From positions 29,821 through 93,820 of the forward strand of contig JBBABZ010000001.1 in NCBI GenBank assembly GCA_041657385.1: a stretch of DNA of 64,000 nucleotides, in the 5' to 3' direction. The notes beneath the pieces are model-generated. The model did not search any database and had not been told where the DNA came from. It saw only the letters and a program-made list of their open reading frames with translations. The translations under genes and the position numbers were made by a program. Positions within the stretch are counted from its first letter, which is position 1. Each line of letters opens with the position of its first letter. This document shows, piece by piece, positions 24,319 to 36,303 of the stretch. This stretch comes from Minisyncoccota bacterium. GTDB taxonomy: Bacteria; Patescibacteriota; Minisyncoccia; Minisyncoccales; JAQTVQ01.

Positions 24319-25158
24319 ATGTCAAGCCAATTGTCCACAATTAAACAGACTAAGGAGCTTTTGGAAAAATACGGCTTATCCCCTAGAAAAGGGCTGGGCC
24401 AGAACTTTTTGGTAAATAAAGGAGTGGTTGAAAAATTGATCAAGGCCGGGCAGATAGAAAAAACCGACCTTGTCTTGGAAGTCGGGCCGGGCATCGGCGT
24501 TTTAACCAAAGAGCTGGCCAAAGCATCCCGAAAAGTGATCGCCGTTGAGAAAGATCCTCAAATGGTTGAAATTTTATCCAAAGAGCTAGCCGAGCTTCAA
24601 ATTGATAATGTAGAGATCGTCCAAGATGATATTATGGAATTTTTAGAAAAAGGAGGATTGGCCGGCCAAGAGTATAAGGTTGCCGGAAACATTCCTTTTT
24701 ATTTGACCGCCCATTTGATCCGCCTTCTTTTGGAAATGCCCCAGCCGCCCAAAGATATGGTTTTTGTTTTGCAAAAAGAAGTCGGCCAGCGCATCGCAAG
24801 CCTGCCGCCGAAAATGACCCTGCTCTCCGCATCGGTCCAATTTTACGCCCAGCCCAAGCTGTCCGGCTATATTAAAAGGCATTCCTTCTGGCCGGTCCCG
24901 GCCGTGGACGCGGCAATCATCAGAATCACGCCAAAAAATCCGACGCCGGAGGTTGGCCGCGATCTTTTTTTCAAAATTTTGAAAGCCGGCTTTTCCCAGC
25001 CGCGCAAACAGCTTATTAACAACTTATCAAACTCGTTAAAAACTGATAAAATAGAAATCAATAATTGGCTTTTAAAAAATAACATCCAGCCCGCCCAAAG
25101 AGCGGAAACTTTATCGATAGGGGACTGGATAAATTTAACCCAAAGCTATCATTCTTAA
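24319..25158 (+). CDS. rsmA: 16S rRNA (adenine1518/1519-N6)-dimethyltransferase
   Basis: GQNFLVN, the LEVGPGIGVLT SAM motif, and the NIPFYLT/QKEV blocks of KsgA. Confidence 0.85.
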   Translation: MSSQLSTIKQTKELLEKYGLSPRKGLGQNFLVNKGVVEKLIKAGQIEKTDLVLEVGPGIGVLTKELAKASRKVIAVEKDPQMVEILSKELAELQIDNVEIVQDDIMEFLEKGGLAGQEYKVAGNIPFYLTAHLIRLLLEMPQPPKDMVFVLQKEVGQRIASLPPKMTLLSASVQFYAQPKLSGYIKRHSFWPVPAVDAAIIRITPKNPTPEVGRDLFFKILKAGFSQPRKQLINNLSNSLKTDKIEINNWLLKNNIQPAQRAETLSIGDWINLTQSYHS

Positions 25159-25161
25159 AAA

Positions 25162-27462
25162 ATGACCCGCCGTTCTATTTATTTCGCCGCGATAATAATC
25201 CTCTTTTTTTCTTTGGCCGGGCCATGCCTGGCTGCTTGCGGCAGCTCTTGGTACGGATGCGTAGGAGGCCACAGCAATTCCTGCTCGGACGATCTTTGGT
25301 TTTATACACAATCCTGCGGCGGATATAACGACAAAGGGCAGTGCTTGAGCTGCCTTACCAATCAAGTTTTATCACAGGACTGTTTTGAATGGGAACAATG
25401 CAGCAGCGGCGCGGCTAAATGCCAATGCTGCGGCGATTGCTTCGGCACTCCAAAAAATCCAAGATACTACGACAACCCCACTTATTCCGACCAGCCGGAC
25501 AAAAGCCAAAATTCTCAAAGCATCGATCTTCCCTTAAAGCTGGACTGGGATGACGTCCTCGGCTGGAAAGACGGCTGGACGCAAAACGGAAACAAACAAT
25601 CCTGCTCCAGAAACTGCGCGAATTCTTACCGTTTGACTATCTACGACACAAAGGCAAAAAAAGAAGTCATTAATAAAGTCTTAACAAAGTCAGAATACAA
25701 TATCCGCGAAGACAAAGGGCCCTGTTTTTTAGAATCCAGCCGCACTTATGAATGGCACGTCCAAGCCTGCTGCGATTCTAATGGAACCACTTGCGGCCCG
25801 GCCAGCAATTGGAGTTTTACCACTAGCCTAGCACCGGAATTGGATTCTCCTTACGATCCAGATTGGGCCGGCCCGGAAAAAATAGAGAATGTCGATCTTC
25901 CGGTTTCTTTGAAATGGTGCAAGATCAACGAAACCAATTCCCACGACATAAGATTCTTTCTTGTAAAAAACGGGGTGGAACAATGTCATCCAAGCCTTTT
26001 GAACGGAACCGAATGCACCACTTATCCTTTCAACTTAAAAACTCAAACCAATTCCGAAATAACGGTTTTCCAAGACACTGACCTGAATTTCTTTACTAAA
26101 AGCAGCGAATACCGCTGGGAAATTTCTTCCTGTAAAGGCTATGTAAATTCCGAATGCGAGCTTTTCGGCCAGAAATGGTCTTTTTCCACCAAGGACACCA
26201 ATTTGATTGCCGCTTCGGGCTATCTCCCTTCAAACGATCCGACAGGAGCAACCCCCATCGGCCTTCCGGTAGATTTCAGCTGGGTCAAAACACCCGGAGC
26301 CAACTCTTATATTTTTGAACTGAACCCCGTGAACATTAAAAAGACTCTCAACTCAACTGGCCTGCAAATCGACTCTCCTTCTTTACAGTTGACGTCCTCC
26401 TATAATTGGAGAGTAAAACCTTGCTGGGATTTTGAAGGAAAAGACTGCGAAGATTTCAGCCAAACTTATTATTTCACAACCACCGGCCTGCCGCCGGTTA
26501 ATATCAATGTCGACGCCGTATCGTTTCCGGTTGAGATCGATTGGGGTAATGTCAGCGGAGCGTCTTCTTACTATTATCAGCTAGCTTCGGATGCCGGCTT
26601 TCAAAATATCATTGAAGGAAAGGATGCCAGCCAAAACAAAATAAGTTTTGATTATACTAAGATCAAACAGGAAACCGATTATTGGTTCCGCTTAAAAACC
26701 TGCGCCCATCAAAACGGAGAGCTCTGCGGCGATTGGAGCCAGACAAAAAACTTTAAAACGATCAAACTGGCATCCCCCGCAAACATTAAACCTCAAAATG
26801 GCTCCGTTCTTTCGACGAGCCAAGCGCAAACCTTTTCCTGGAACCCGGTTCCGGCCGCGAAGTATTATAAATATTCTTTAAAATACGCCGAGATGGCTGC
26901 CGAAGAAACCAATGAAAAATGCCCAGCCCTGCTTAACCAACTCCAAGAAAAAATTACAGCCAACACAAATGCCATAGAGATCATGGACTGCAAAGGAAAA
27001 TACCAGCTTCAAGCTCAAGCCTGTATGGAAGCAGATTGCAAGGCCGAGACATCGGGCAGCTGGTCTGCGGTGCAAGAGTTTAGTATAAAATCAGGAGTCG
27101 CTTCAAAAGACCTCCAAGGCAAGGGATTCATCCCTTGCGGCTTGTCAGCCGATGATCCAACAACCCCTTGGGACGAAAGCCAAAGATGCGAGATAAAACA
27201 CTTGTTCATTCTATTGAATATGATCATAAATTTCTTGATGTGGACGCTCGTGCCGATCGTCCTTCTCTTCTTGATGCTGGCTTCCGGAGCGATCTTTTAT
27301 TTCTCGATGGGCAGGGAAGACCCCTTGCCGCGGATCAAGTCTTTATGGAAAGCCGCCGGCATCGGCCTTGGCATTATTTTCTTATCTTGGTTCATTATCA
27401 ATATCAGCTTGTCATTGGTCGGATTTAAATTCGGCGCCTTTGGCAAATGGTGGAATTTTTAA
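25162..27462 (+). CDS. Secreted cysteine-rich protein with about 5 Fn3-like repeats fused to a C-terminal VirB2/TrbC-like two-TM pilin hairpin
   Basis: Signal peptide ending CLAAC and many paired cysteines. Repeated modules each end in W-x-F-(S/T)-T (NWSFTT, KWSFST, TYYFTT, KNFKT, QEFSI). C-terminus IPCG...C then two TM helices, homologous to the ORF at 15756. Confidence 0.5.
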   Translation: MTRRSIYFAAIIILFFSLAGPCLAACGSSWYGCVGGHSNSCSDDLWFYTQSCGGYNDKGQCLSCLTNQVLSQDCFEWEQCSSGAAKCQCCGDCFGTPKNPRYYDNPTYSDQPDKSQNSQSIDLPLKLDWDDVLGWKDGWTQNGNKQSCSRNCANSYRLTIYDTKAKKEVINKVLTKSEYNIREDKGPCFLESSRTYEWHVQACCDSNGTTCGPASNWSFTTSLAPELDSPYDPDWAGPEKIENVDLPVSLKWCKINETNSHDIRFFLVKNGVEQCHPSLLNGTECTTYPFNLKTQTNSEITVFQDTDLNFFTKSSEYRWEISSCKGYVNSECELFGQKWSFSTKDTNLIAASGYLPSNDPTGATPIGLPVDFSWVKTPGANSYIFELNPVNIKKTLNSTGLQIDSPSLQLTSSYNWRVKPCWDFEGKDCEDFSQTYYFTTTGLPPVNINVDAVSFPVEIDWGNVSGASSYYYQLASDAGFQNIIEGKDASQNKISFDYTKIKQETDYWFRLKTCAHQNGELCGDWSQTKNFKTIKLASPANIKPQNGSVLSTSQAQTFSWNPVPAAKYYKYSLKYAEMAAEETNEKCPALLNQLQEKITANTNAIEIMDCKGKYQLQAQACMEADCKAETSGSWSAVQEFSIKSGVASKDLQGKGFIPCGLSADDPTTPWDESQRCEIKHLFILLNMIINFLMWTLVPIVLLFLMLASGAIFYFSMGREDPLPRIKSLWKAAGIGLGIIFLSWFIINISLSLVGFKFGAFGKWWNF

Positions 27463-27466
27463 AATT

Positions 27467-28135
27467 ATGCCTAAACTTAAAATAACATTTCTAATTTTTA
27501 TAGGCCTTATGGCTGTTCTTTTGGTTTCCAATTGGGCGTCAACGAGCTATCTGAAAAATCAAATAAAAAAAATCCAGCCGCAAAACGGCGAGGATCAAAC
27601 TTCTTCCGCAAGCAGCACGCCTCTTTCGATCGAAGAGATTATCAAAGAGAGCAGCTATAAAACCCTTAAAACAGCTGACCAAAAATTATCGATCAAGTGC
27701 CCGATCGATTGGGTTGAAATAGGGGAAGAAAAAATATTAAAATATTTCGACGCTGAAACGGTCAGCCGATATCAGATAAAAATTCCTTTGGCCGCTGTAA
27801 AAAAAGACGGGGCCCAGCTGATGGTCACGGAAATTTTTATGGACTCGACCAGCACTCTCAAAGACGCTCTGTCTGCAAACGAAGAAATATACAAAAAAAC
27901 AGGGCAAGATGTTAATATTTTGTTGCAAAGCGAAAAAGAAAAAGAGCTGTATTTTGAAGCCGAATATACCCAAAAAGAGGAAAAAATGACCAGCCAGGAA
28001 AAAATATTGGAAACTGCGGACGATCAAGAAAAAAAACATTTTTACATTGTTTCGGTTGTCGTTCCAAGCGATCTGTCAAAAAATTATCAAGAAACAGGAA
28101 GCGAGATGCTAAGCTCTATTCAAATTAATAATTAA
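27467..28135 (+). CDS. Membrane-anchored hypothetical protein (size and topology compatible with a VirB8-like T4SS component)
   Basis: Single N-terminal TM (ITFLIFIGLMAVLLV) followed by a soluble domain of about 190 aa. Start taken at the ATG at 27467, after the upstream gene's stop. Confidence 0.4.
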   Translation: MPKLKITFLIFIGLMAVLLVSNWASTSYLKNQIKKIQPQNGEDQTSSASSTPLSIEEIIKESSYKTLKTADQKLSIKCPIDWVEIGEEKILKYFDAETVSRYQIKIPLAAVKKDGAQLMVTEIFMDSTSTLKDALSANEEIYKKTGQDVNILLQSEKEKELYFEAEYTQKEEKMTSQEKILETADDQEKKHFYIVSVVVPSDLSKNYQETGSEMLSSIQINN

Positions 28136-28155
28136 TTTGTGGTATAATATCGGCA

Positions 28156-29142
28156 ATGAAAATAGCAAAAAAAATTATTTTTTCTTTAATGGTTTTGGGC
28201 CTACTGGCCCCTTTAAAAATTTTTGCGCTGGAAATAGATTGGCCGGCTTCTCCGGCTGGCACAAATCTGTCAGATCAAAGCACTCTCACAGAGCTGACCA
28301 AATACTCTTACGAATGGGCGATAACACTGGGCATCTTGGCTTTTTTTGTTTCAATAGTTATTAACGGAGTTAAGTATATGACCTCAACCGGTGATCCCGG
28401 CAAAACTGCGAATGTGCGCAAAAGAATACAATCCTCGGCCGCGGGACTGGGCTTACTTCTTGGCTCTTGGATCCTTTTAAACTTCTTGAACCCAAGATTA
28501 ACCACTCTTTTTATTCCTGATCCAAACCAAGATTTAGCCACGCAAATGATTGAATATGAAGACTTCAGCAAACTTAAAGAAAACTCCTGCGATCTTATAA
28601 TTATTTATCCTAAAAAAAATTACGAAGAAGATAGTAACTTTGATCCACCAAAAGAAGTTCTTTATAACAGCGCAAAATCTCCCATAGATTTCAAAGTAAG
28701 TTTTTTTCCTCATTCTTTAAAAGTGTTGAAACAAATTAAAGGAGACGAACAATTAGTCTTAATGGACCAAGCAAACAGGCTGATCAGGGAAGAAAATGAA
28801 AAAATCAGAAAAGCAAATGAAGAAATGGTAAGATCGGGAGTTCAGGGGCCACCACAAGTGGAAAAACCGGAAAAAACTTTAAACGAGGCCATAAAAGAAA
28901 AATACGGTTCTGACCCTTTTCCTTATAGTGGGGGGCTTTTTGTTGATGCCCCTCCTGGCTGTGTTGCATACTTCTACAGAAAAGACCCTAAATATTTGTC
29001 GACGAGCATCTTTGGAACAGAGGATGTTCTAGCTTTTCAAATGTATGGCAGTAATCCTGATTTTAATACTCTTTATTCTGAAAACGAACTGAATCAGATT
29101 AAAAAATTCAGAGTGGTTATCCCTGGTACTGTGAGTGAGTAA
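28156..29142 (+). CDS. VirB2/TrbC-like pilin-domain protein with a C-terminal extension of about 200 aa
   Basis: Signal peptide, then YEWAITLGILAFFVSIVINGV - basic loop - AAGLGLLLGSWILLNF two-TM hairpin. Paralog of the 15756 ORF and of the 25162 C-terminus. Confidence 0.45.
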   Translation: MKIAKKIIFSLMVLGLLAPLKIFALEIDWPASPAGTNLSDQSTLTELTKYSYEWAITLGILAFFVSIVINGVKYMTSTGDPGKTANVRKRIQSSAAGLGLLLGSWILLNFLNPRLTTLFIPDPNQDLATQMIEYEDFSKLKENSCDLIIIYPKKNYEEDSNFDPPKEVLYNSAKSPIDFKVSFFPHSLKVLKQIKGDEQLVLMDQANRLIREENEKIRKANEEMVRSGVQGPPQVEKPEKTLNEAIKEKYGSDPFPYSGGLFVDAPPGCVAYFYRKDPKYLSTSIFGTEDVLAFQMYGSNPDFNTLYSENELNQIKKFRVVIPGTVSE

Positions 29143-29186: not shown

Positions 29187-31409
29187 ATGATCCCAAAAAA
29201 ATATTATTATTTTCTCGCAATTTTCATCGCTTTTTTTGGCTTGTTTTTTGTTGTAAAAACAGCTTCCGCCGGCGGGATACCTTTTATTTCAGAGCTTCCC
29301 TCCAGTGAAGGATTTTTAAGCTCAATCGAAGAAATAGCCGGCCCCATCCTGCAAGAAGCAATAGGTCTTTTTACTGCGATCATCAAAGCCTTTGTAATGG
29401 TTTTTGTATCCGCCCATCTCTTGGATTGGGCGATGACCCAGCCCATAGGCCTTGATGATAAACTCGTGACAACAGGCTGGGCCTTTACTTTAGCTCTGAC
29501 AAATTTGATCTTTATTTTTATCATCCTTTATATCGCCATAAAGCAGATCGTCAGCGACGAAGGAGATATGAACTCTATTAAAAAATACCTTCCCAGATTA
29601 ATAACCACTATTCTACTGGTAAATTTTGGCGTGGTTTTTATAAAAATGGCGATCGATATCGCCTTTATTTTGCAAAGGAGCATGGTTCCCTCTGATTCAA
29701 GCCTGGCTTTTAACAGCCTATCCGGATTGGAACAACAGATTAGCGGGATTTTAATAAGTTATGGACTCTACTTTGGCGCAGGGATTCTTGCTTCTTTCCT
29801 GCCGTCAGCCGCAGCTGTCTGGCAAGGATTAGCCTGGCCGACATATATTTTAATGGCGCCGGCAAGGATCAGCGCCGAGATCCAAATTTATGTTTGCAAC
29901 ACTTTGGCAGGCATTTATTTTCTTTATGCCTTATATTTTATAATAAGGATCTATGTAATTAAAATTTTAACCATAATTTTCCCTTTAGCTTTTGCCTGTT
30001 ACGCCATCCCAAGCGAAGGCGCCCAAAAATTATGGAAACAATGGTCTAACTTTTTTATCACTTGGGTCTTTTTCCCTATACCCTTGCTCTTTTTCCTGGT
30101 CCTCGGGCTTAAATTGCTTCAAGACATAATGCCGGCTGGAATGGCTGCAATGGCAACCCCCCTTGCTTTCTGGCAAATAGCTACAAATGGAAATTTGCTC
30201 AGCCCAGCTGTAAACTACTATATCGCCCTTATCGCTTACCTTGCCACTTTAGCTTATCTGAAAGTTAAATTTTCGCCAAGCCTCGATATTGGAGGAATAA
30301 AGGGAGGGGCACTGATAGACAAGGGGAAAAACTTTGTTCTTAACAGGGCTAAACAATCCTTCGCCGGGGCCGCTGTCAACCAGCGGGCAAGAGAAAAAAC
30401 CGTACAGGCAGAAGAAGCAAGCGGCAAAAAATCAGGATGGATGAAAAGAACGGGGATGATGGCCGGCTCTCTTGCTGCGGGAGTGGTAGAAAATGAATTT
30501 AGAAGCTCCGGAACTACTTCCAACATAGAGCTTGCCAAGGCTATTAAAGAAAAAAAAGAAGAATACAAAAAACAATTCGGAGAAGATATGGAAAGCGCCT
30601 CAAAATTTTTCAACGACCCTTCGTCAGCTCCGAAGACAGATCTCGAAAAAAGAGCTTTTTCTTCATACCTTGTTGATAATGCCAAAAGCGGCGAAGACTT
30701 AAAAAAGGCTTTGGACGGCGGCGGATTTTTAAAGAGATCTTTTAAGATAGAAAATCTCAAAGAAAGAAAAGCCAGAGTAACGATGAAAGTGGAGGACCTG
30801 CTCAAGGCCTCGGACGAAAAAACCGCAGATGCCTTAAAAAGGAGTATGATCGGCGAAACAGTTGTTGAATCAAAATTGTGGAATTTGACCGGCGGCAGCA
30901 AAGATATCAAGTCAAAATTCACACTCGCTGAAGAAGAGGTTAAAAAGGTCGTTGGAGGAGCCAAAAGCGAGGAAGACATGAAGCAGTTTATCCCAGGCTT
31001 TGAAAAAGACCCAGCCGCTCTTGAAAAAATAATGGAATTTGACGTTGAACAGCTTACGGCGCTAGCGAAAACCCATCGCTCCGCGCTTAAAGAATATGTC
31101 AAAAAGGTCAATGAAAAAGGCGTTGAAGATTTTGCAAAAGACCACGCCAGCCAGATGATGTTTATAGTTGGAACCGCCGGCCAAGCCGTCTTGCGGGATA
31201 AAGACAACAATGTCCTTGATAAAAAAGCGATTCAAGAAATGATAAGCGGAGTTAAAAAACACCAAGAGGACCCACCTATAGCTGGGTTTGCGCCAGAGAA
31301 AAAAGAGGCCTCGCCCGAACCTCCCAAAACGACAGAAGAAAAGGTAGAAGGGACGGGGGGCAGAAAATCTACAGCCGAAAGGATAAACGAAAAAAGAAAT
31401 AAGGGATAA
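29187..31409 (+). CDS. VirB6/TrbL-like polytopic membrane protein with a long K/E-rich C-terminal domain
   Basis: Signal peptide, 7 or more predicted TM helices over the first 360 aa or so, then a hydrophilic tail of about 380 aa. Confidence 0.5.
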   Translation: MIPKKYYYFLAIFIAFFGLFFVVKTASAGGIPFISELPSSEGFLSSIEEIAGPILQEAIGLFTAIIKAFVMVFVSAHLLDWAMTQPIGLDDKLVTTGWAFTLALTNLIFIFIILYIAIKQIVSDEGDMNSIKKYLPRLITTILLVNFGVVFIKMAIDIAFILQRSMVPSDSSLAFNSLSGLEQQISGILISYGLYFGAGILASFLPSAAAVWQGLAWPTYILMAPARISAEIQIYVCNTLAGIYFLYALYFIIRIYVIKILTIIFPLAFACYAIPSEGAQKLWKQWSNFFITWVFFPIPLLFFLVLGLKLLQDIMPAGMAAMATPLAFWQIATNGNLLSPAVNYYIALIAYLATLAYLKVKFSPSLDIGGIKGGALIDKGKNFVLNRAKQSFAGAAVNQRAREKTVQAEEASGKKSGWMKRTGMMAGSLAAGVVENEFRSSGTTSNIELAKAIKEKKEEYKKQFGEDMESASKFFNDPSSAPKTDLEKRAFSSYLVDNAKSGEDLKKALDGGGFLKRSFKIENLKERKARVTMKVEDLLKASDEKTADALKRSMIGETVVESKLWNLTGGSKDIKSKFTLAEEEVKKVVGGAKSEEDMKQFIPGFEKDPAALEKIMEFDVEQLTALAKTHRSALKEYVKKVNEKGVEDFAKDHASQMMFIVGTAGQAVLRDKDNNVLDKKAIQEMISGVKKHQEDPPIAGFAPEKKEASPEPPKTTEEKVEGTGGRKSTAERINEKRNKG

Positions 31410-31421
31410 AAACGTCAAAAC

Positions 31422-31452
31422 AAAAGAGGCCGATTAAATTGGCCTCTTTTTT
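31422..31452. terminator. Bidirectional intrinsic terminator hairpin
   Basis: aaaagaggccgattaaattggcctctttttt lies between convergent genes. Confidence 0.6.
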
Positions 31453-31460
31453 GTTGTTCT

Positions 31461-32540
31461 TTAACCCTTTCTTTTGTCTGGCTTTTTCGTCAAGCTCTTA
31501 GCAATTTCGGGGAAATTAGATCCTATCCCGCGTATATGCTCGCTCTTCAAATCCACCACTAAAGATGAGACTGTAAGCAACGCCGTCTGATAAATAGCCG
31601 CTCCTTCTTCCTTCCCAAACCTTTCTATCAACATCTTGATCATCGCCTCTTCTCCATCTTTATAGAGAAACGCTGCCGCCTTACTTCCCTCCGCTTTCAA
31701 GATAGCGGCTTTTTTTTCTCCTTCAGCCTTTTCGATTGCTGCCTCCTTTTCTTTGGTCGCGATATATTTCGCGGCAATGATCTTCTCCCAATCTGGCGGA
31801 GGCATGATATTCTGCACTTGAATATCGGAAAGTTCTATTCCATAATCAATCAACAATTCCTCAATAATGGACCTTTCGTTGGAATATCCGGCTCCTTTTT
31901 TCTTTTCTTCACTGTTGCCTTTAGAATCTTCGGGCAGTCTTTTTTCTCTTAACATCTTCATAAAAGTAGCACCCAAATCTCCCTTTTCTTTGACCATTGA
32001 TTCTAGCGTCTTCTCTCCGATAACGTCTCGGATAACCGGTCCGGTTTTGTTAACCAACATTTCCATCCAATTTTCACAGTCGAAAAGCGCTTTCTTGGGG
32101 TTAACCACTTTGGCCGTATAAATTATCCCCACTGAAGCTAGCCTGACCTGGTTAGAATCTAATGGCGCAAGAATATCCGCATAATACAAGTCACTTTTGA
32201 GGAAGACATAATCTATTATTCTCAAGTCATGGTGATCTTTTTCTCCTCTCTGATTGACCGACGTCCATTCCCAAGGATATTCATAAATATAATCCAGCGG
32301 ATTAATGCTGAAAAATCTTATTCCTCCTAAAAAATGGCCATGACTTTTCTCTCCAGGGGAGAGGGGAACTATATTCCATTCACGATCAAACTTATACCCG
32401 TCATAATTCAAAAGCCCTCCTCTGAATTCTCCATATCTTACAATAATTTTGCAATAACCATTCTCGATTTGCGTATAGAATCTCCGCTTTTTATAATCAG
32501 CTATTTTTTCCTTTGACTTTAGTGTTGCTTCTCCTTCCAT
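31461..32540 (-). CDS. SPFH/band-7 (stomatin/prohibitin-like) domain protein
   Basis: IDYGIELSDIQVQNIMPP and a downstream A/E/K-rich coiled coil are characteristic of the SPFH C-terminal region. Confidence 0.6.
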   Translation of the reverse strand: MEGEATLKSKEKIADYKKRRFYTQIENGYCKIIVRYGEFRGGLLNYDGYKFDREWNIVPLSPGEKSHGHFLGGIRFFSINPLDYIYEYPWEWTSVNQRGEKDHHDLRIIDYVFLKSDLYYADILAPLDSNQVRLASVGIIYTAKVVNPKKALFDCENWMEMLVNKTGPVIRDVIGEKTLESMVKEKGDLGATFMKMLREKRLPEDSKGNSEEKKKGAGYSNERSIIEELLIDYGIELSDIQVQNIMPPPDWEKIIAAKYIATKEKEAAIEKAEGEKKAAILKAEGSKAAAFLYKDGEEAMIKMLIERFGKEEGAAIYQTALLTVSSLVVDLKSEHIRGIGSNFPEIAKSLTKKPDKRKG

Positions 32541-32775: not shown

Positions 32776-32805
32776 TTGACAAAAGCGGATTTATGTTAAA
32801 ATATT
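32776..32805 (+). promoter_or_regulatory. Sigma70-like promoter candidate (TTGACA, about 15 nt, TGtTAAAAT)
   Basis: ttgacaaaagcggatttatgttaaaat lies 8 bp upstream of the ATG at 32813. Confidence 0.4.
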
Positions 32806-32812
32806 TTTAAGC

Positions 32813-33313
32813 ATGCAAAAAGAAATTTCAGAACAACAATTTTGGGAGGCATACGATGCTATCCCCGCTGAATTGCAGGATGCGATTTTTTCCGAAAAAA
32901 CGGCAAAAGCCATTTTCAATGCTTGTGTCGAAAATGGCATAGAAGATGAAAGAATATCTAAGGTCGCTAAAAACGTCGGAGATGTCCTTTTGGGCCTTCT
33001 TTCTCCTGAACAATTACAGCCAACGCTGGAACTTGATCTAAATTTAGAGTCGCAAGCATCGGAAAATATCTGCCAAGCGATATATAATACTATCTTTGAA
33101 CCAGTCCGCTCGCAGCTCGCAGAGCTTTATCTCCATAATAATGAAGAGAGAAAAGAAACAAAAATAAAAATAGAGGTCGAACCAAAAATAGAGAAACCTT
33201 CATCTGAAGATGTACTAGGTAACAATCCTAAAAAAGAAGACAAAAAACCTATCCCTGCCAAATCGGCGACAGAAAAGTCTTCTTCTGTTTCCTACCGCGA
33301 GCCAATCGGCTAA
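32813..33313 (+). CDS. Hypothetical acidic protein
   Basis: ORF with good coding periodicity and no recognisable motifs. Lies in the T4SS-like cluster. Confidence 0.4.
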   Translation: MQKEISEQQFWEAYDAIPAELQDAIFSEKTAKAIFNACVENGIEDERISKVAKNVGDVLLGLLSPEQLQPTLELDLNLESQASENICQAIYNTIFEPVRSQLAELYLHNNEERKETKIKIEVEPKIEKPSSEDVLGNNPKKEDKKPIPAKSATEKSSSVSYREPIG

Positions 33314-33327
33314 CCTCAAATCAAACT

Positions 33328-33744
33328 ATGCAATTCCAAGTTCCTCAATTCATAGAACACGAAGCAAAAATTTTAGGACCCCTGACTTTCAGGCAGACTA
33401 TTTTTATGGGCATTGCCGCCATGGTCTGCTTTATGCTTTATTTTGCTTTTGGCAAAACTAATTTCTTTTTATTCATCTTGTCATCTATCTTGATCGTAGG
33501 AGGAACGGCAGCTCTGGCTTTTGTCAAAATTAGCGGGCAGACCTTATCTTTGATCGTAAAAAATTTTTTCATTTTCAGCCTAGCCCCGAAACTCTATCTT
33601 TGGAAAAGGAAGGAGACTGCGGTATATTTTGAAAAATCTCCAATTAAGCCCGTTGGAAAAGAAGAGCCGAAAAACTCTCCGCTTAAAATAGTGAAAGGCA
33701 GCAATATAAAAGATTTAAGTAAAAAATTGGATTTCGGCGGATAA
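33328..33744 (+). CDS. PrgI/VirB3-like small two-TM membrane protein
   Basis: 138 aa with two adjacent TM helices (FMGIAAMVCFMLYFAF, FFLFILSSILIVGGTAALAF). Lies immediately upstream of the VirB4-like gene, as in Gram-positive T4SS. Confidence 0.45.
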   Translation: MQFQVPQFIEHEAKILGPLTFRQTIFMGIAAMVCFMLYFAFGKTNFFLFILSSILIVGGTAALAFVKISGQTLSLIVKNFFIFSLAPKLYLWKRKETAVYFEKSPIKPVGKEEPKNSPLKIVKGSNIKDLSKKLDFGG

Positions 33745-33751
33745 ATTTATT

Positions 33752-34393
33752 ATGGCAAAGATCGCAACCCAACAATTTCTTCCCATCGACCAAATCAGAG
33801 AAGGAGTACTGCTCTTAAAAGACAGATCTATGAGGGGGGTCATTATGATCTCTTCTTTGAATTTCGCCTTGAAATCGGAAGATGAACAAACGGCCATCAT
33901 CTACCAATTCCAAAATTTCCTAAATTCTCTGGATTTTTCCTGCCAAATAATCGCTCAATCTCGAAAATTAAACATAACCGGATACCTCGAAAAGCTCAAA
34001 GAGATAGAAAAGGCCCAGCAAAACGAACTTCTCAAAACGCAGACGGCTGAATATCGCAAATTCATTGAACAAATAATAAGCGGGGGATCGATCATGTCAA
34101 AAAGTTTTTATACCGTTGTCCCTTATTATCCTTTAATAGATATTCCTGGAGCTCCTGGAGCAAAACAAAAAAAAGATGCCAGCAGGGCTAGTTTGACCGA
34201 AGAAAAATTCCAGCGCGGAAAATATCAGTTATGGCAAAGGATGGAATATGTTGTTTTGGGGTTAAGGCGCTGCGGCTTAAGAGGAAGCCCTCTCAACACC
34301 CCTGAACTGATCGAATTGCTTTGGGCCCATCATCATCCAAAAGAAGCAGAATCCGGATATTATCCTGAATTGCCCCCGGAAATGTTAATTTAA
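33752..34393 (+). CDS. VirB4/TrbE-like protein, N-terminal fragment (split gene or frameshift)
   Basis: Resembles the CagE/TrbE/VirB N-terminal domain (LPIDQIREGVLLLKDRSMRGVIMISS...). Ends 24 bp before the ATPase ORF, which is in a different frame. Confidence 0.45.
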   Translation: MAKIATQQFLPIDQIREGVLLLKDRSMRGVIMISSLNFALKSEDEQTAIIYQFQNFLNSLDFSCQIIAQSRKLNITGYLEKLKEIEKAQQNELLKTQTAEYRKFIEQIISGGSIMSKSFYTVVPYYPLIDIPGAPGAKQKKDASRASLTEEKFQRGKYQLWQRMEYVVLGLRRCGLRGSPLNTPELIELLWAHHHPKEAESGYYPELPPEMLI

Positions 34394-34416
34394 TATATTA
34401 AAAAGCCTTAATCTCA

Positions 34417-36186
34417 ATGAATTTTCTTAAAAAAGGTGAACGGGAGAAATTTTTTGAAGCGGAAAAGATGGACGCAAAAGACATCATCGCCCCCGCCTCG
34501 ATCGAGATCAAACAAAGCAATATAAAGTTAGGCGAAAAATTAGCTAAAACCTACTTTGTTTTTTCCTATCCAAGATACCTTACTACCGGCTGGCTTTCCC
34601 CGATCATTAATTTAGATATTCCCCTGGATATCTCTTTCTTTTTTCATCCAGTGGAAACCGGCGATGTCTTAAAAAAAATGCGTCGCAAAGTTACCGAAAT
34701 ACAGGCCGAACTTTTAGAGAGGGAAGAAAAAGGGTTGGTTCGCGATCCTTCGCTCGAAACCGCTTACAATGACTTGGAGAACCTGCGCGACAGCCTCCAA
34801 ACCGCGCAAGAAAAAATGTTTAAATTTGGATTATATATTACCGTCTACGCCGACACCGAAGCCCAGCTCACAGATGTTGAGACGACCCTAAGATCAGTGC
34901 TTGAATCGCGTTTGATCTATCTAAAGCCGGCTCTCTGCCAGCAAAAAGAAGGATTTATCTCTGTCTCGCCATACGCTATAGACCAATTGCAAGTCCACAC
35001 CAGCATCAATACCGGCCCATTGTCTTCTGTTTTTCCTTTTGTTTCTTTTGACCTTAGCTCTAATGAAGGAATTTTGTACGGCATGAATAAGCATAATAAT
35101 TCCCTGGTTCTGTTCGACCGCTTTACCCTGGAAAACGCCAATATGGTCATTTTCGCCAAATCCGGATCAGGAAAATCTTACGCGGTCAAACTAGAGGTAT
35201 TGCGATCTTTAATGATGGGAGTGGAAGGGATTATCGTTGACCCGGAAAACGAATATGAAATGCTTTCCGATTCGGTTGGAGGCTCCTTTTTTAAAATCTC
35301 TTTAAGCTCGGATGATCATATCAATCCTTTTGATCTGCCGATCCCCCGCGAAGATGAAAAAGCGGAAGATGTTTTAAGGTCAAACATCATCAACCTTGTT
35401 GGGCTTATCAGGATCATGCTTGGAGGGCTGAACCCGGAGGAGGATGCGATCATCGACCGCGCGCTGGCTGAAACTTATGCCGCCAAAGATATCACGCCGG
35501 ATTCCGACCAATCAAAATGGAAAGAGAATACCCCGATCTTATCGGATTTGGAATCAGTTTTGGAAACAATGCAAGGAGCGGAATCACTGGTCCAAAGAAT
35601 AAGAAAATTCACTCGCGGAACATTTTCTTCTTTCTTTAATCAGCAATCCAATATTTCTATGGATAAACAGTTGGTTGTTTTCGGGATCAGAGATATGGAA
35701 GACGAGTTAAGGCCGATGGCAATGTTTATTATTATGCGCTATATTTGGAACGAGATCCGATCCGAATTGAAAAAAAGGATATTAGTGATCGATGAGGCTT
35801 GGTGGCTGATGCAGTCCGAAGACGGAGCCTCTTTCTTATATGGCATGGCCAAGCGCGCCCGCAAATATTGGCTGGGAGTAACCACTATCACTCAAGATGT
35901 TTCCGATTTTATGAAATCTTCCTATGGCAAACCGATCATCACTAATTCCTCTCTCCAGCTTCTTCTCAAACAGAGCCCAGCTACTGTTGATATTCTTCAG
36001 CAAACTTTTAACCTGACCGACCAAGAAAAATTTTTACTGCTTGAAACGCCGATAGGAGAGGGAATTTTTTTCGCCGGACAAAAACATGTATCTATTAAAA
36101 TAGTCGCTTCTTATACAGAGGACCAGATTATAACCTCCAGTCCAGAGCAAATCTTAAAGATCAAAGAAGCTAAAAAAAATATCTGA
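34417..36186 (+). CDS. VirB4/TrbE-like T4SS ATPase (central and C-terminal part)
   Basis: Walker A in MVIFAKSGSGKSY and the RKYW...TQDVSDF C-terminal blocks typical of VirB4-family ATPases. Confidence 0.75.
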   Translation: MNFLKKGEREKFFEAEKMDAKDIIAPASIEIKQSNIKLGEKLAKTYFVFSYPRYLTTGWLSPIINLDIPLDISFFFHPVETGDVLKKMRRKVTEIQAELLEREEKGLVRDPSLETAYNDLENLRDSLQTAQEKMFKFGLYITVYADTEAQLTDVETTLRSVLESRLIYLKPALCQQKEGFISVSPYAIDQLQVHTSINTGPLSSVFPFVSFDLSSNEGILYGMNKHNNSLVLFDRFTLENANMVIFAKSGSGKSYAVKLEVLRSLMMGVEGIIVDPENEYEMLSDSVGGSFFKISLSSDDHINPFDLPIPREDEKAEDVLRSNIINLVGLIRIMLGGLNPEEDAIIDRALAETYAAKDITPDSDQSKWKENTPILSDLESVLETMQGAESLVQRIRKFTRGTFSSFFNQQSNISMDKQLVVFGIRDMEDELRPMAMFIIMRYIWNEIRSELKKRILVIDEAWWLMQSEDGASFLYGMAKRARKYWLGVTTITQDVSDFMKSSYGKPIITNSSLQLLLKQSPATVDILQQTFNLTDQEKFLLLETPIGEGIFFAGQKHVSIKIVASYTEDQIITSSPEQILKIKEAKKNI

Positions 36187-36189
36187 AAA

Positions 36190-36213
36190 CAAAAAAGCCC
36201 TTAAGGGCTTTTT
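36190..36213. terminator. Bidirectional intrinsic terminator hairpin
   Basis: aaaaaagcccttaagggctttttt lies between convergent genes. Confidence 0.65.
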
Positions 36214-36303
36214 TGTTTTCAGAATAAATTTTATAATTTCCATTTGGCTCTGCTGTCGGGAGGGGCAACTCGCTCCCCGAGGCGGAAGCCCGCCCCGATA
36301 AAA

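What the first reader, a model, noticed from the sequence alone, without database searches (positions are those of the whole stretch)
33752..36186. VirB4 ATPase split into two adjacent ORFs in different reading frames
ORF 33752-34393 (213 aa) resembles the VirB4 N-terminal domain and stops 24 bp before ORF 34417-36186 (589 aa), which holds the Walker A/B ATPase core. Together they total about 800 aa, the normal VirB4 length. This is either a genuine two-part VirB4, programmed frameshifting, or a frameshift mutation or pseudogenisation.
Basis: seen in the sequence. Interest (0 to 1): 0.5.

Follow-up and report, generated by a model that had tools for sequence, protein, structure and literature searches.

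The report
Naturally two-gene VirB4 secretion ATPase
The two adjacent reading frames are a genuine, widely conserved two-gene form of the VirB4 motor of a type IV secretion system in an ultra-small (Patescibacteria) bacterium, not a frameshift or sequencing error, and this arrangement is already described in the literature.

Summary
ORF1 (33752-34393, 213 aa) and ORF2 (34417-36186, 589 aa) lie 23 nt apart in different frames. Together they cover a full-length VirB4.

The error and recoding readings are refuted:
- In 85 of 85 testable related loci, which include 78 of the 80 species-representative genomes fetched, the N-terminal part ends at its own stop and the ATPase part starts at its own ATG.
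- The relative frames across those loci are 0/+1/+2 = 22/33/30, and the spacers run from an ATGA overlap to 177 nt.
- Both genes are under strong purifying selection.
- In the window, stops in both frames (34391 and 34399) block any single-shift fusion.

ORF1 is a TrsD-family protein, that is, a detached first half of the VirB4 N-terminal domain. The same break point occurs in TrsD/TrsE of staphylococcal pSK41 and in Bacillota plasmids. A sister clade (Colwellbacteria) has the two parts fused into about 790 aa at the same chromosomal locus.

Quinonero-Coronel et al. 2025 (PMC12102498) already report TrsD homologues next to virB4, near dnaA, as the most abundant T4SS component in Patescibacteria. 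The finding is therefore real, functional and ordinary for this lineage. The two products most likely assemble non-covalently into one VirB4 motor; that step is inferred, not shown.

The parts
33752..34393 (+). ORF1, 213 aa: a TrsD-like stand-alone protein equal to the first half of the VirB4 N-terminal domain (Pfam PF26593 'TraC-like' in its relatives).
   Evidence: AF2 model pLDDT 70.7; its top 13 PDB fold hits are all TrwK/VirB4. It aligns to aa 5-213 of the fused 797-aa P0230.
34394..34416 (+). 23-nt AT-rich spacer between the two genes. It contains TAA in the ORF2 frame at 34399-34401.
   Evidence: No terminator-like site lies in the spacer.
34417..36186 (+). ORF2, 589 aa: the VirB4 ATPase subunit. 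Aa 1-214 are the second half of the N-terminal domain and aa 215-574 the C-terminal ATPase domain.
   Evidence: NCBIfam conju_CD1110 E 1.2e-110, 370.9 bits against a cut-off of 325. Pfam P-loop_TraG, AAA_10, DUF87 and CagE_TrbE_VirB. PDB 4AG5 VirB4 C-terminal domain, E 2.8e-40 over aa 215-574.
35155..35178 (+). Walker A motif AKSGSGKS (ORF2 aa 247-254).
35779..35802 (+). Walker B motif ILVIDEAW (ORF2 aa 455-462).
33328..33744 (+). PrgI-family (VirB3-like) small membrane protein, 138 aa, immediately upstream of ORF1.
   Evidence: Pfam PF12666, E 1.4e-9. The same position is conserved in L003, L005, L088, L089 and L091.
32813..33313 (+). 166-aa protein of unknown family, the first gene of the putative operon.
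   Evidence: A gene of 156-209 aa holds the same position in L001 and L005.
32776..32805 (+). Promoter-like site (TTGACA, 18 nt, AATATT) upstream of the operon. This is a consensus match only.
36182..36223 (.). Perfect 19-bp-stem hairpin that works as a bidirectional terminator, overlapping the ORF2 stop and facing the convergent jag gene.
29187..31409 (+). 740-aa polytopic membrane protein, VirB6/TrbL-like. Assigned through its orthologue.
   Evidence: The orthologous 730-aa gene in L006 carries PF19590 TrbL_3. The window protein itself has no hit in local Pfam.
28156..29142 (+). 328-aa protein with a T4SS pilin (VirB2-like) domain.
   Evidence: PF18895, E 4e-9.

Best explanation
This is a natural two-subunit VirB4, the motor ATPase of the chromosomal type IV secretion system typical of Patescibacteria (class Paceibacteria). 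ORF1 encodes a TrsD-family protein that equals the first ~200 residues of the VirB4 N-terminal domain. ORF2 encodes the rest of that domain plus the P-loop ATPase domain. The two genes are co-transcribed with the VirB3-like prgI gene, are each translated from their own ATG, and most likely reassemble non-covalently into a VirB4-like unit. That unit would dock on PrgI/VirB3 and VirB6 at the membrane and power secretion or pilus biogenesis.

Shown here: the homology of each part, the colinearity with full-length VirB4, the conservation of the split, purifying selection, and the identical break point in pSK41 TrsD/TrsE.

Inferred: physical association of the two products, and their role in the machine.
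For: 1. Split conserved. All 85 loci that hold both parts, including 78 of 80 species-representative genomes, have a stop after the ORF1 homologue and an ATG start for the ORF2 homologue. Frame offsets are 22/33/30. Spacers run from -4 to 177 nt, with 4 and 1 nt the most common.

2. Stand-alone length conserved. The best 120 of 6907 homologues are all 202-220 aa. Of the best 150 clusters at 50% identity, 149 are not fused.

3. Purifying selection. For ORF1, pN is 0.11-0.21 against pS 0.75-0.83. For ORF2, pN is 0.06-0.18.

4. Colinearity with full-length VirB4. ORF1 aa 5-200 equal P0230 aa 7-213, and ORF2 aa 20-585 equal P0230 aa 230-794. P0230 sits at the orthologous locus: PrgI, VirB4, jag, yidC, rnpA, dnaA, dnaN. 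Its AF2 model superposes end to end on R388 TrwK/VirB4 (TM 0.61, 817 columns, E 4e-24).

5. Same break point in known systems. ORF2 aa 1-562 align with pSK41 TrsE aa 3-617 (E 3e-42). The ORF1 family profile aligns with pSK41 TrsD aa 40-217 (hhalign probability 76%, E 2e-5). Of 84 relatives, 77 hit NCBIfam TrsD. Plasmids of Pontibacillus, Geobacillus and C. perfringens show PrgI, an ORF1-like 274-318 aa protein, then a 621-641 aa ATPase.

6. Operon. There is no terminator between the genes; a promoter-like site precedes the operon and a strong hairpin follows it. Most genes in the window lack a Shine-Dalgarno sequence, so its absence before ORF2 is normal here.

7. Literature. TrsD homologues, described as remotely homologous to the VirB4 N-terminus, are reported as the most abundant T4SS component in Patescibacteria. 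Of 2272, 1664 lie next to virB4, often near dnaA, dnaN, rnpA, rpmH and ksgA. The homologue in Southlakia epibionticum is listed as essential (PMC12102498).
Against: No direct evidence shows that the two polypeptides bind each other or that both are expressed. No proteomic or transcript data were available, and no multimer model could be run.

The ORF1 structure model is of moderate confidence (pLDDT 70.7), and its fold match to VirB4 is weak in TM terms (0.36-0.45, E 0.015).

The link to TrsD itself is remote: 17 bits for the window protein against a curated cut-off of 200.
Confidence: 0.9

Rival explanations
1. A frameshift mutation or a sequencing or assembly indel has broken a single ~800-aa virB4 gene. 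The gene would then be a pseudogene or an artefact.
For: The two ORFs are adjacent, in different frames, and sum to 802 aa. A fused ~790-aa form exists in a sister clade. A CCCCC run lies at 34373 near the end of ORF1.
Against: The same split is found in 85 of 85 independent loci, with all three frame relations and with variable spacers.

In the window, a shift into the ORF2 frame anywhere before the ORF1 stop meets TAA at 34399 or an earlier stop (34066, 34189, 34303, 34366). At least two changes would therefore be needed.

Purifying selection acts on both parts.

Real artefacts look different. The 600-aa 'VirB4s' P0289 and P0385 in the fused clade are interrupted by runs of 100 N.
Confidence: 0.02
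2. Programmed ribosomal frameshifting, or another recoding event, joins ORF1 and ORF2 into one polypeptide.
For: ORF2 lies in the -1 frame relative to ORF1. Three X_XXY_YYZ heptamers occur in ORF1, at 33913, 34168 (A7) and 34255.
Against: The two open frames do not overlap: the ORF2 frame is closed at 34399-34401, downstream of the ORF1 stop.

Shifts at the three heptamers would terminate at 34066, 34189 and 34303.

The frame relation is not conserved among orthologues (22 in frame, 33 at +1, 30 at +2). Many orthologues have a stop and start separated by 1-4 nt or an ATGA overlap, the pattern of translational coupling between separate genes.
Confidence: 0.01
3. ORF1 is an independent accessory protein that descends from a VirB4 N-terminus but now does something else, for example acting as a regulator or adaptor. 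It would not serve as the missing part of the ATPase.
For: The literature assigns no function to TrsD (PMC12102498).

In other CPR lineages the ORF1 relatives have acquired long low-complexity C-terminal tails.

In Gracilibacteria, TrsD homologues are reported not to be next to virB4.

The split clade has its own invariant C-terminal motif AExGYYPxLPPE.
Against: ORF2 lacks exactly the segment that ORF1 supplies: conju_CD1110 model positions 2-107 against 180-734.

The fused sister clade at the same locus shows that the two parts work as one chain.

The two genes were adjacent in every locus that could be tested.
Confidence: 0.07

Closest known systems
TrsD + TrsE (TraD + TraE) of staphylococcal conjugative plasmids pGO1/pSK41 (MPF-FATA subclass pGO1)
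   Same: The gene order is the same: a VirB3-like small membrane protein, then a ~210-230 aa TrsD, then a shortened VirB4 ATPase (pSK41 25492-28602). The break point is the same: ORF2 aa 1 aligns with TrsE aa 3. The ORF1 family profile aligns colinearly with TrsD.
   Different: Sequence similarity is remote: ORF1 scores 17 bits on NF041427 against a cut-off of 200, and ORF2 is 26% identical to TrsE. TrsE is 672 aa against 589. The pSK41 system is plasmid-borne and conjugative, with a relaxase and a coupling protein. The window locus is chromosomal, beside the replication origin genes, and no relaxase was seen in the region examined.
The Patescibacteria T4SS described by Quinonero-Coronel et al. 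2025 (PMC12102498), shown essential in Southlakia epibionticum by Wang et al. 2023 as cited there
   Same: The components and context match: VirB2-like pilin, VirB6-like protein, PrgI/VirB3, a TrsD homologue and VirB4, next to jag, yidC, rnpA, rpmH, dnaA and dnaN, with ksgA nearby.
   Different: Nothing of substance differs. The paper lists TrsD as a separate component with no assigned function and does not use the words 'split' or 'two genes' (0 occurrences each). The analysis here adds the shared break point and the fused sister clade.
Full-length VirB4/TraC/TrbE/CagE ATPases (R388 TrwK, PDB 7O41/8RTD; CD1110 family; Colwellbacteria ~790-aa proteins such as P0230)
   Same: ORF1 plus ORF2 are colinear with these proteins over their whole length, and the ATPase motifs are intact.
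   Different: Those are single polypeptides. Here the chain is interrupted about 200 residues in, inside the N-terminal domain rather than at the boundary between the N- and C-terminal domains.
VirB3-VirB4 fusion proteins of some conjugative systems
   Same: They show that the covalent connectivity of the VirB3, VirB4 N-terminal and VirB4 ATPase modules varies in evolution.
   Different: The change runs the opposite way, fusion rather than fission. No VirB3-VirB4 fusions were found in Patescibacteria (PMC12102498).

Membership tests
VirB4/TraC/CagE type IV secretion ATPase | C-terminal P-loop ATPase domain with Walker A and B motifs, homologous to solved VirB4 C-terminal domains | tested here: met
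   ORF2 aa 215-574 match 4AG5, E 2.8e-40. Walker A lies at aa 247-254 and Walker B at aa 455-462. NCBIfam conju_CD1110 scores 370.9 bits against a cut-off of 325.
VirB4/TraC/CagE type IV secretion ATPase | VirB4-type N-terminal domain preceding the ATPase domain in one ~800-aa polypeptide | tested here: not met
   The domain is present but is divided between ORF1 (model positions 2-107) and ORF2 (from position 180). The two parts are separated by stops in both frames. The single-chain form is met only in the sister clade.
VirB4/TraC/CagE type IV secretion ATPase | Encoded beside other T4SS inner-membrane components (VirB3, VirB6) | tested here: met
   PrgI lies at 33328-33744. A VirB6/TrbL_3-like gene at 29187-31409 is assigned through its orthologue in L006. 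A T4SS pilin domain lies at 28156-29142.
TrsD/TraD family conjugative transfer protein (NCBIfam NF041427) | Score at or above the curated cut-off of the family model (200 bits) | tested here: not met
   ORF1 scores 17.1 bits, E 0.0037. It is therefore a remote relative and not a member by NCBI's threshold. Of 84 relatives, 77 hit the model at E <= 0.01, with a best E of 8.5e-13.
TrsD/TraD family conjugative transfer protein (NCBIfam NF041427) | A stand-alone protein of ~200-230 aa encoded between a VirB3-like gene and a shortened VirB4 gene | tested here: met
   The window order is PrgI, ORF1, ORF2. This compares with pSK41 25492-25899, trsD 25886-26569 and the gene at 26584-28602. hhalign of profile A2 against pSK41 TrsD gives probability 76%, E 2.3e-5.
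Pfam PF26593 'TraC-like' domain | A match to the Pfam model | not testable with these tools
   The local Pfam copy returned no PF26593 hit and seems not to hold the model. All 120 listed homologues, including the 95%-identical P0001, carry a precomputed PF26593 hit.
Programmed -1/+1 ribosomal frameshift site | Overlap of the two open frames that contains a slippery sequence, with the frame relation conserved in orthologues | tested here: not met
   There is no overlap: the ORF2 frame is closed at 34399, after the ORF1 stop at 34391. The heptamers at 33913, 34168 and 34255 lead to early stops. Frame relations across orthologues are 22/33/30.
Frameshifted pseudogene or assembly artefact | Close relatives with an intact single gene, relaxed constraint, and a single indel that restores the ORF | tested here: not met
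   None of 85 related loci in the window's clade is fused. pN is far below pS. No single indel restores one ORF.

The most novel reading that the evidence does not exclude
The split may be the ancestral state of the whole Patescibacteria T4SS, shared by descent with pGO1/pSK41-type Bacillota systems, which break at the same point. The ~790-aa Colwellbacteria protein would then be a secondary re-fusion.

That would give TrsD its first functional assignment: the trans-acting N-terminal subdomain of VirB4 that docks on VirB3.

A bolder version is that a detached subdomain lets the cell set its stoichiometry or assembly independently of the ATPase ring. That could matter because the solved R388 VirB4 assemblies are built from dimers (trimer-of-dimers entry 7O42), and, from my own reading of the R388 structural work, not all copies contact VirB3.
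Probability: 0.15. Interest if true: 0.4.

Novelty: already known. Interest (0 to 1): 0.15.

Why it matters
For annotation, gene pairs like this in Patescibacteria should not be flagged as frameshifted pseudogenes or merged into one gene. The 213-aa 'hypothetical protein' should be named a TrsD-like VirB4 N-terminal subunit.

For biology, the T4SS is reported as essential for the epibiotic lifestyle in a cultivated Patescibacteria member (PMC12102498; PMC12857230). Knowing that its motor has two chains bears on structural and biochemical work. The natural fused and split forms at the same locus offer a ready test of what TrsD does. None of this would surprise a T4SS specialist.

Tried and rejected
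- **PDB sequence search with ORF1 alone.** It found nothing meaningful (BibA, E 0.25). Fold search was needed instead.
- **Shallow profile against pSK41 TrsD.** Profile A1 (Neff 1.9) gave only 3.8% probability. The deeper profile A2 raised it to 76%.
- **Local Pfam on ORF1.** It gave only a sub-threshold TraC_F_IV hit (E 0.069).
- **Guglielmini et al. 2014 (PMC4027160).** I looked for the original statement of TrsD-VirB4 homology. The main text held here does not contain 'TrsD', so that attribution rests on PMC12102498.
- **Recent splits inside the fused clade.** I considered that the 600-aa proteins P0289 and P0385 were such splits. They are artefacts of 100-N gaps.
- **Relatives of 280-443 aa as truncated fusions.** They are not. 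Their extra sequence is low-complexity tail with no similarity to ORF2.
- **Alternative genetic code.** The ORF1 stop is TAA, so a UGA-recoding code is irrelevant here.
- **Rfam scan of the window.** It found only two tRNAs and nothing at the junction.
Full report

Yes. The ORF table and the sequence show ORF1 at 33752-34393 (+, ATG, 213 aa, stop TAA at 34391-34393). They show ORF2 at 34417-36186 (+, ATG, 589 aa). The starts are 2 and 1 modulo 3, so ORF2 lies in the -1 frame relative to ORF1. The spacer is 23 nt (34394-34416).

ORF1 matches the N-termini of full-length VirB4 models:
- NCBIfam VirB4_plasma positions 104-215 of 894, E 1.6e-10.
- conju_CD1110 positions 2-107 of 752, E 2.8e-5.
- PRK13853 VirB4 positions 14-177.

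ORF2 matches conju_CD1110 positions 180-734 with 370.9 bits, above the curated cut-off of 325. It also has the Pfam domains P-loop_TraG, AAA_10, DUF87 and a partial CagE_TrbE_VirB. ORF2 aa 215-574 correspond to the solved VirB4 C-terminal domain 4AG5 (E 2.8e-40). Walker A (AKSGSGKS, aa 247-254) and Walker B (ILVIDEAW, aa 455-462) are intact.

The break therefore lies inside the VirB4 N-terminal domain, about 200 residues in, and not at the boundary between the N- and C-terminal domains.

**2. Is it an error, a recoding site, or a real two-gene arrangement?**

Four lines of evidence point the same way.

(a) *Sequence logic in the window.*
- The ORF2 frame carries stops at 34066, 34189, 34303, 34366 and 34399.
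- The last of these lies downstream of the ORF1 stop, so the two open frames never overlap.
- The three X_XXY_YYZ heptamers in ORF1 (33913, 34168, 34255) would each lead to an early stop.
- Even an indel in the CCCCC run at 34373 would run into TAA at 34399.
- No single ribosomal or mutational shift can join the ORFs.

(b) *Length of homologues.*
- ORF1 has 6907 homologues in the large protein collection. The best 120 (62-95% identity) are all 202-220 aa, from Paceibacterota, Nealsonbacteria and Parcubacteria MAGs.
- A full HMMER scan of 1.84 billion cluster representatives found 1944 hits. Of the best 150, only one (P0230, 797 aa) also contains ORF2-like sequence.

(c) *Junctions in related genomes.* I fetched 80 species-representative genome loci and six metagenome loci, and analysed every junction.
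- In all 85 loci that hold both parts, the ORF1 homologue ends at a stop and the ORF2 homologue begins at its own ATG.
- The two loci that could not be tested (L039, L058) are cut by contig ends.
- The frame offset is 0, +1 or +2 in 22, 33 and 30 loci.
- Spacers range from a 4-nt ATGA overlap to 177 nt. The most common are 4 nt (14 loci), 1 nt (10) and -4 nt (8).
- This is the pattern of two translationally coupled genes, not of a conserved recoding site.

(d) *Selection.* Against six orthologous loci, synonymous sites are saturated (pS 0.75-0.85). Non-synonymous differences are 0.11-0.21 for ORF1 and 0.06-0.18 for ORF2. Both genes are under strong purifying selection.

For contrast, the only apparent 600-aa 'truncated' VirB4s in the fused sister clade (P0289, P0385) are interrupted by 100-N scaffold gaps. 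That is what an artefact looks like.

**3. What is ORF1?**

- The AlphaFold2 model built from 54 homologues is moderately confident (pLDDT 70.7).
- Its 13 best PDB fold matches are all chains of R388 TrwK/VirB4 (best E 0.015, probability 0.99, TM 0.36-0.45).
- Across 84 diverse relatives (28-60% identity to ORF1), 84 hit the N-terminus of the mycoplasma ICE VirB4 model. Of the same 84, 77 hit NCBIfam TrsD/TraD (best E 8.5e-13) and 72 hit the CD1110 VirB4 N-terminus.
- A profile of these relatives aligns colinearly with pSK41 TrsD aa 40-217 (hhalign probability 76%, E 2.3e-5).
- The window protein itself scores only 17 bits on the TrsD model, far below the curated 200 bits. It is a remote relative and not a member by NCBI's threshold.

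**4. The same break point elsewhere.**

- pSK41 encodes a VirB3-like protein (25492-25899), trsD (25886-26569, 227 aa) and a DUF87 ATPase (26584-28602, 672 aa). From my own knowledge, that ATPase is TraE/TrsE.
- ORF2 aligns with this ATPase from its residue 1 to the ATPase's residue 3 onward (aa 1-562 against 3-617, E 3e-42). The chain is cut at the same place.
- The nearest plasmid relatives of ORF1 are stand-alone 'hypothetical proteins' in Bacillota plasmids.
- In Pontibacillus, Geobacillus and Clostridium perfringens the order is PrgI, an ORF1-like protein of 274-318 aa, then a VirB4-like ATPase of 621-641 aa.

**5. A fused sister clade.**

- P0230 (797 aa) aligns with ORF1 over aa 5-213 (hhalign probability 99.9%) and with ORF2 over aa 230-794.
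- It lies at the orthologous locus: PrgI, VirB4, jag, yidC, rnpA, dnaA, dnaN.
- At least 115 clusters at 90% identity, of 775-807 aa and mostly labelled Candidatus Colwellbacteria, share this fused form.
- The AF2 model of P0230 (pLDDT 72.4) superposes end to end on TrwK/VirB4 in the R388 machine (8RTD, TM 0.61-0.62, 817 columns, E 3.9e-24).
- So ORF1 plus ORF2 equals one complete VirB4, and the two parts can work as one chain.
- In the fused protein the junction reads ...NPATIEKRGEVIGRQGMGGVASIEDVVAPASVE.... It retains a Met about where the ORF2-type start would be.
- With 149 of the best 150 clusters unfused and the Bacillota relatives split at the same point, parsimony favours the split as the older state and the Colwellbacteria form as a re-fusion. 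This is an inference. I did not build a rooted tree.

**6. Context and expression.**

The locus is the typical Paceibacteria T4SS island beside the replication origin genes. In order:
- ksgA (24319-25158).
- A 766-aa Ig-like protein.
- A VirB2-like pilin-domain protein (28156-29142).
- A VirB6/TrbL-like protein (29187-31409).
- A Band_7 gene on the opposite strand.
- A 166-aa unknown protein, then PrgI, ORF1 and ORF2.
- Convergent jag, yidC, rnpA and rpmH, followed by dnaA and dnaN.

A promoter-like site lies at 32776-32805. Strong hairpin terminators at 31422-31450 and 36182-36223 bracket a putative four-gene operon, and no terminator lies between ORF1 and ORF2. These are consensus matches only. 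ORF2 has no Shine-Dalgarno sequence, but neither do most other genes here.

**7. Mechanism.**

The best-supported reading is a two-subunit VirB4. The TrsD-like chain supplies the first subdomain of the N-terminal domain. From my own knowledge of the R388 structural work, in single-chain VirB4s that subdomain contacts VirB3 and the membrane; this was not tested here. The second chain supplies the rest of the N-terminal domain and the ATPase ring. The two would associate non-covalently.

Homology, colinearity, conservation and co-occurrence are shown. Binding and function are inferred.

A clade-specific invariant C-terminal motif in ORF1 (AExGYYPxLPPE, aa 199-210) is absent from the fused clade. 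It could be a docking element, but this is speculation.

**8. Comparison with what is known.**

Quinonero-Coronel et al. 2025 (PMC12102498) report the following:
- There are 2272 homologues, 1664 of them associated with virB4.
- The Southlakia epibionticum homologue is listed as essential.
- The T4SS sits near dnaA, dnaN, rnpA, rpmH and ksgA in Paceibacteria.

The window matches that description in every respect. The paper says TrsD has no assigned function and does not use the words 'split' or 'two genes' (0 occurrences each).

The shared break point and the fused sister clade shown here are a modest refinement, not a new kind of system.

**Verdict.** It is a genuine, conserved, functional two-gene VirB4 and is already known. 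Interest is low.

Noticed in passing
P0134, P0159, P0176 (relatives of ORF1 from other CPR lineages): About 30 of the best 150 cluster representatives are 280-443 aa. The three sequences I read (P0134, P0159, P0176) have long P/A/Q/T-rich low-complexity C-terminal tails. None of the seven scanned has a Pfam hit in the extra sequence, and none of these longer proteins resembles ORF2. They are stand-alone TrsD-like proteins that have grown tails of their own.
   Followed up: partly
window 36182-36223: A perfect 19-bp-stem palindromic hairpin with T-runs on both strands overlaps the ORF2 stop codon. It probably acts as a bidirectional terminator between the convergent virB4 and jag genes.
   Followed up: no
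window 33752-34393, aa 199-210 of ORF1: The C-terminal tail motif AExGYYPxLPPE is invariant among 54 split-clade homologues. In the fused Colwellbacteria clade it is replaced by different sequence. It may be a docking peptide specific to the split form.
   Followed up: partly
L029, L034, L041, L057, L061 (spacers between the ORF1 and ORF2 homologues): A few orthologous loci have long spacers of 39-177 nt that contain GC-rich inverted repeats, for example GGAGGTTCGACCTCC in L061. These may be small inserted hairpin elements or internal attenuators.
   Followed up: no
window 28156-29142 and 25162-27462: A 328-aa protein has a T4SS pilin (PF18895) domain only at aa 41-111, so it is much longer than usual VirB2 pilins. 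A neighbouring 766-aa protein has a weak Ig-like hit. Both lie just upstream of the VirB6-like gene and may be surface components of the same machine.
   Followed up: partly
window, upstream regions of 12 genes between 29187 and 39913: Almost no gene has a Shine-Dalgarno motif. The leaders are AT-rich, so translation initiation in this organism seems largely independent of Shine-Dalgarno pairing.
   Followed up: partly
L092 1212-1668 and L093 1170-2053: Two public MAG assemblies in the fused clade carry 100-N gaps inside virB4. Gene callers therefore report a false 600-aa 'short VirB4'.
   Followed up: yes
window 31461-32540 (- strand): An SPFH/Band_7 gene sits on the opposite strand between the VirB6-like gene and the PrgI-TrsD-VirB4 operon. 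It holds the same place in L003, L005 and L006, which suggests a conserved association with the T4SS island.
   Followed up: no
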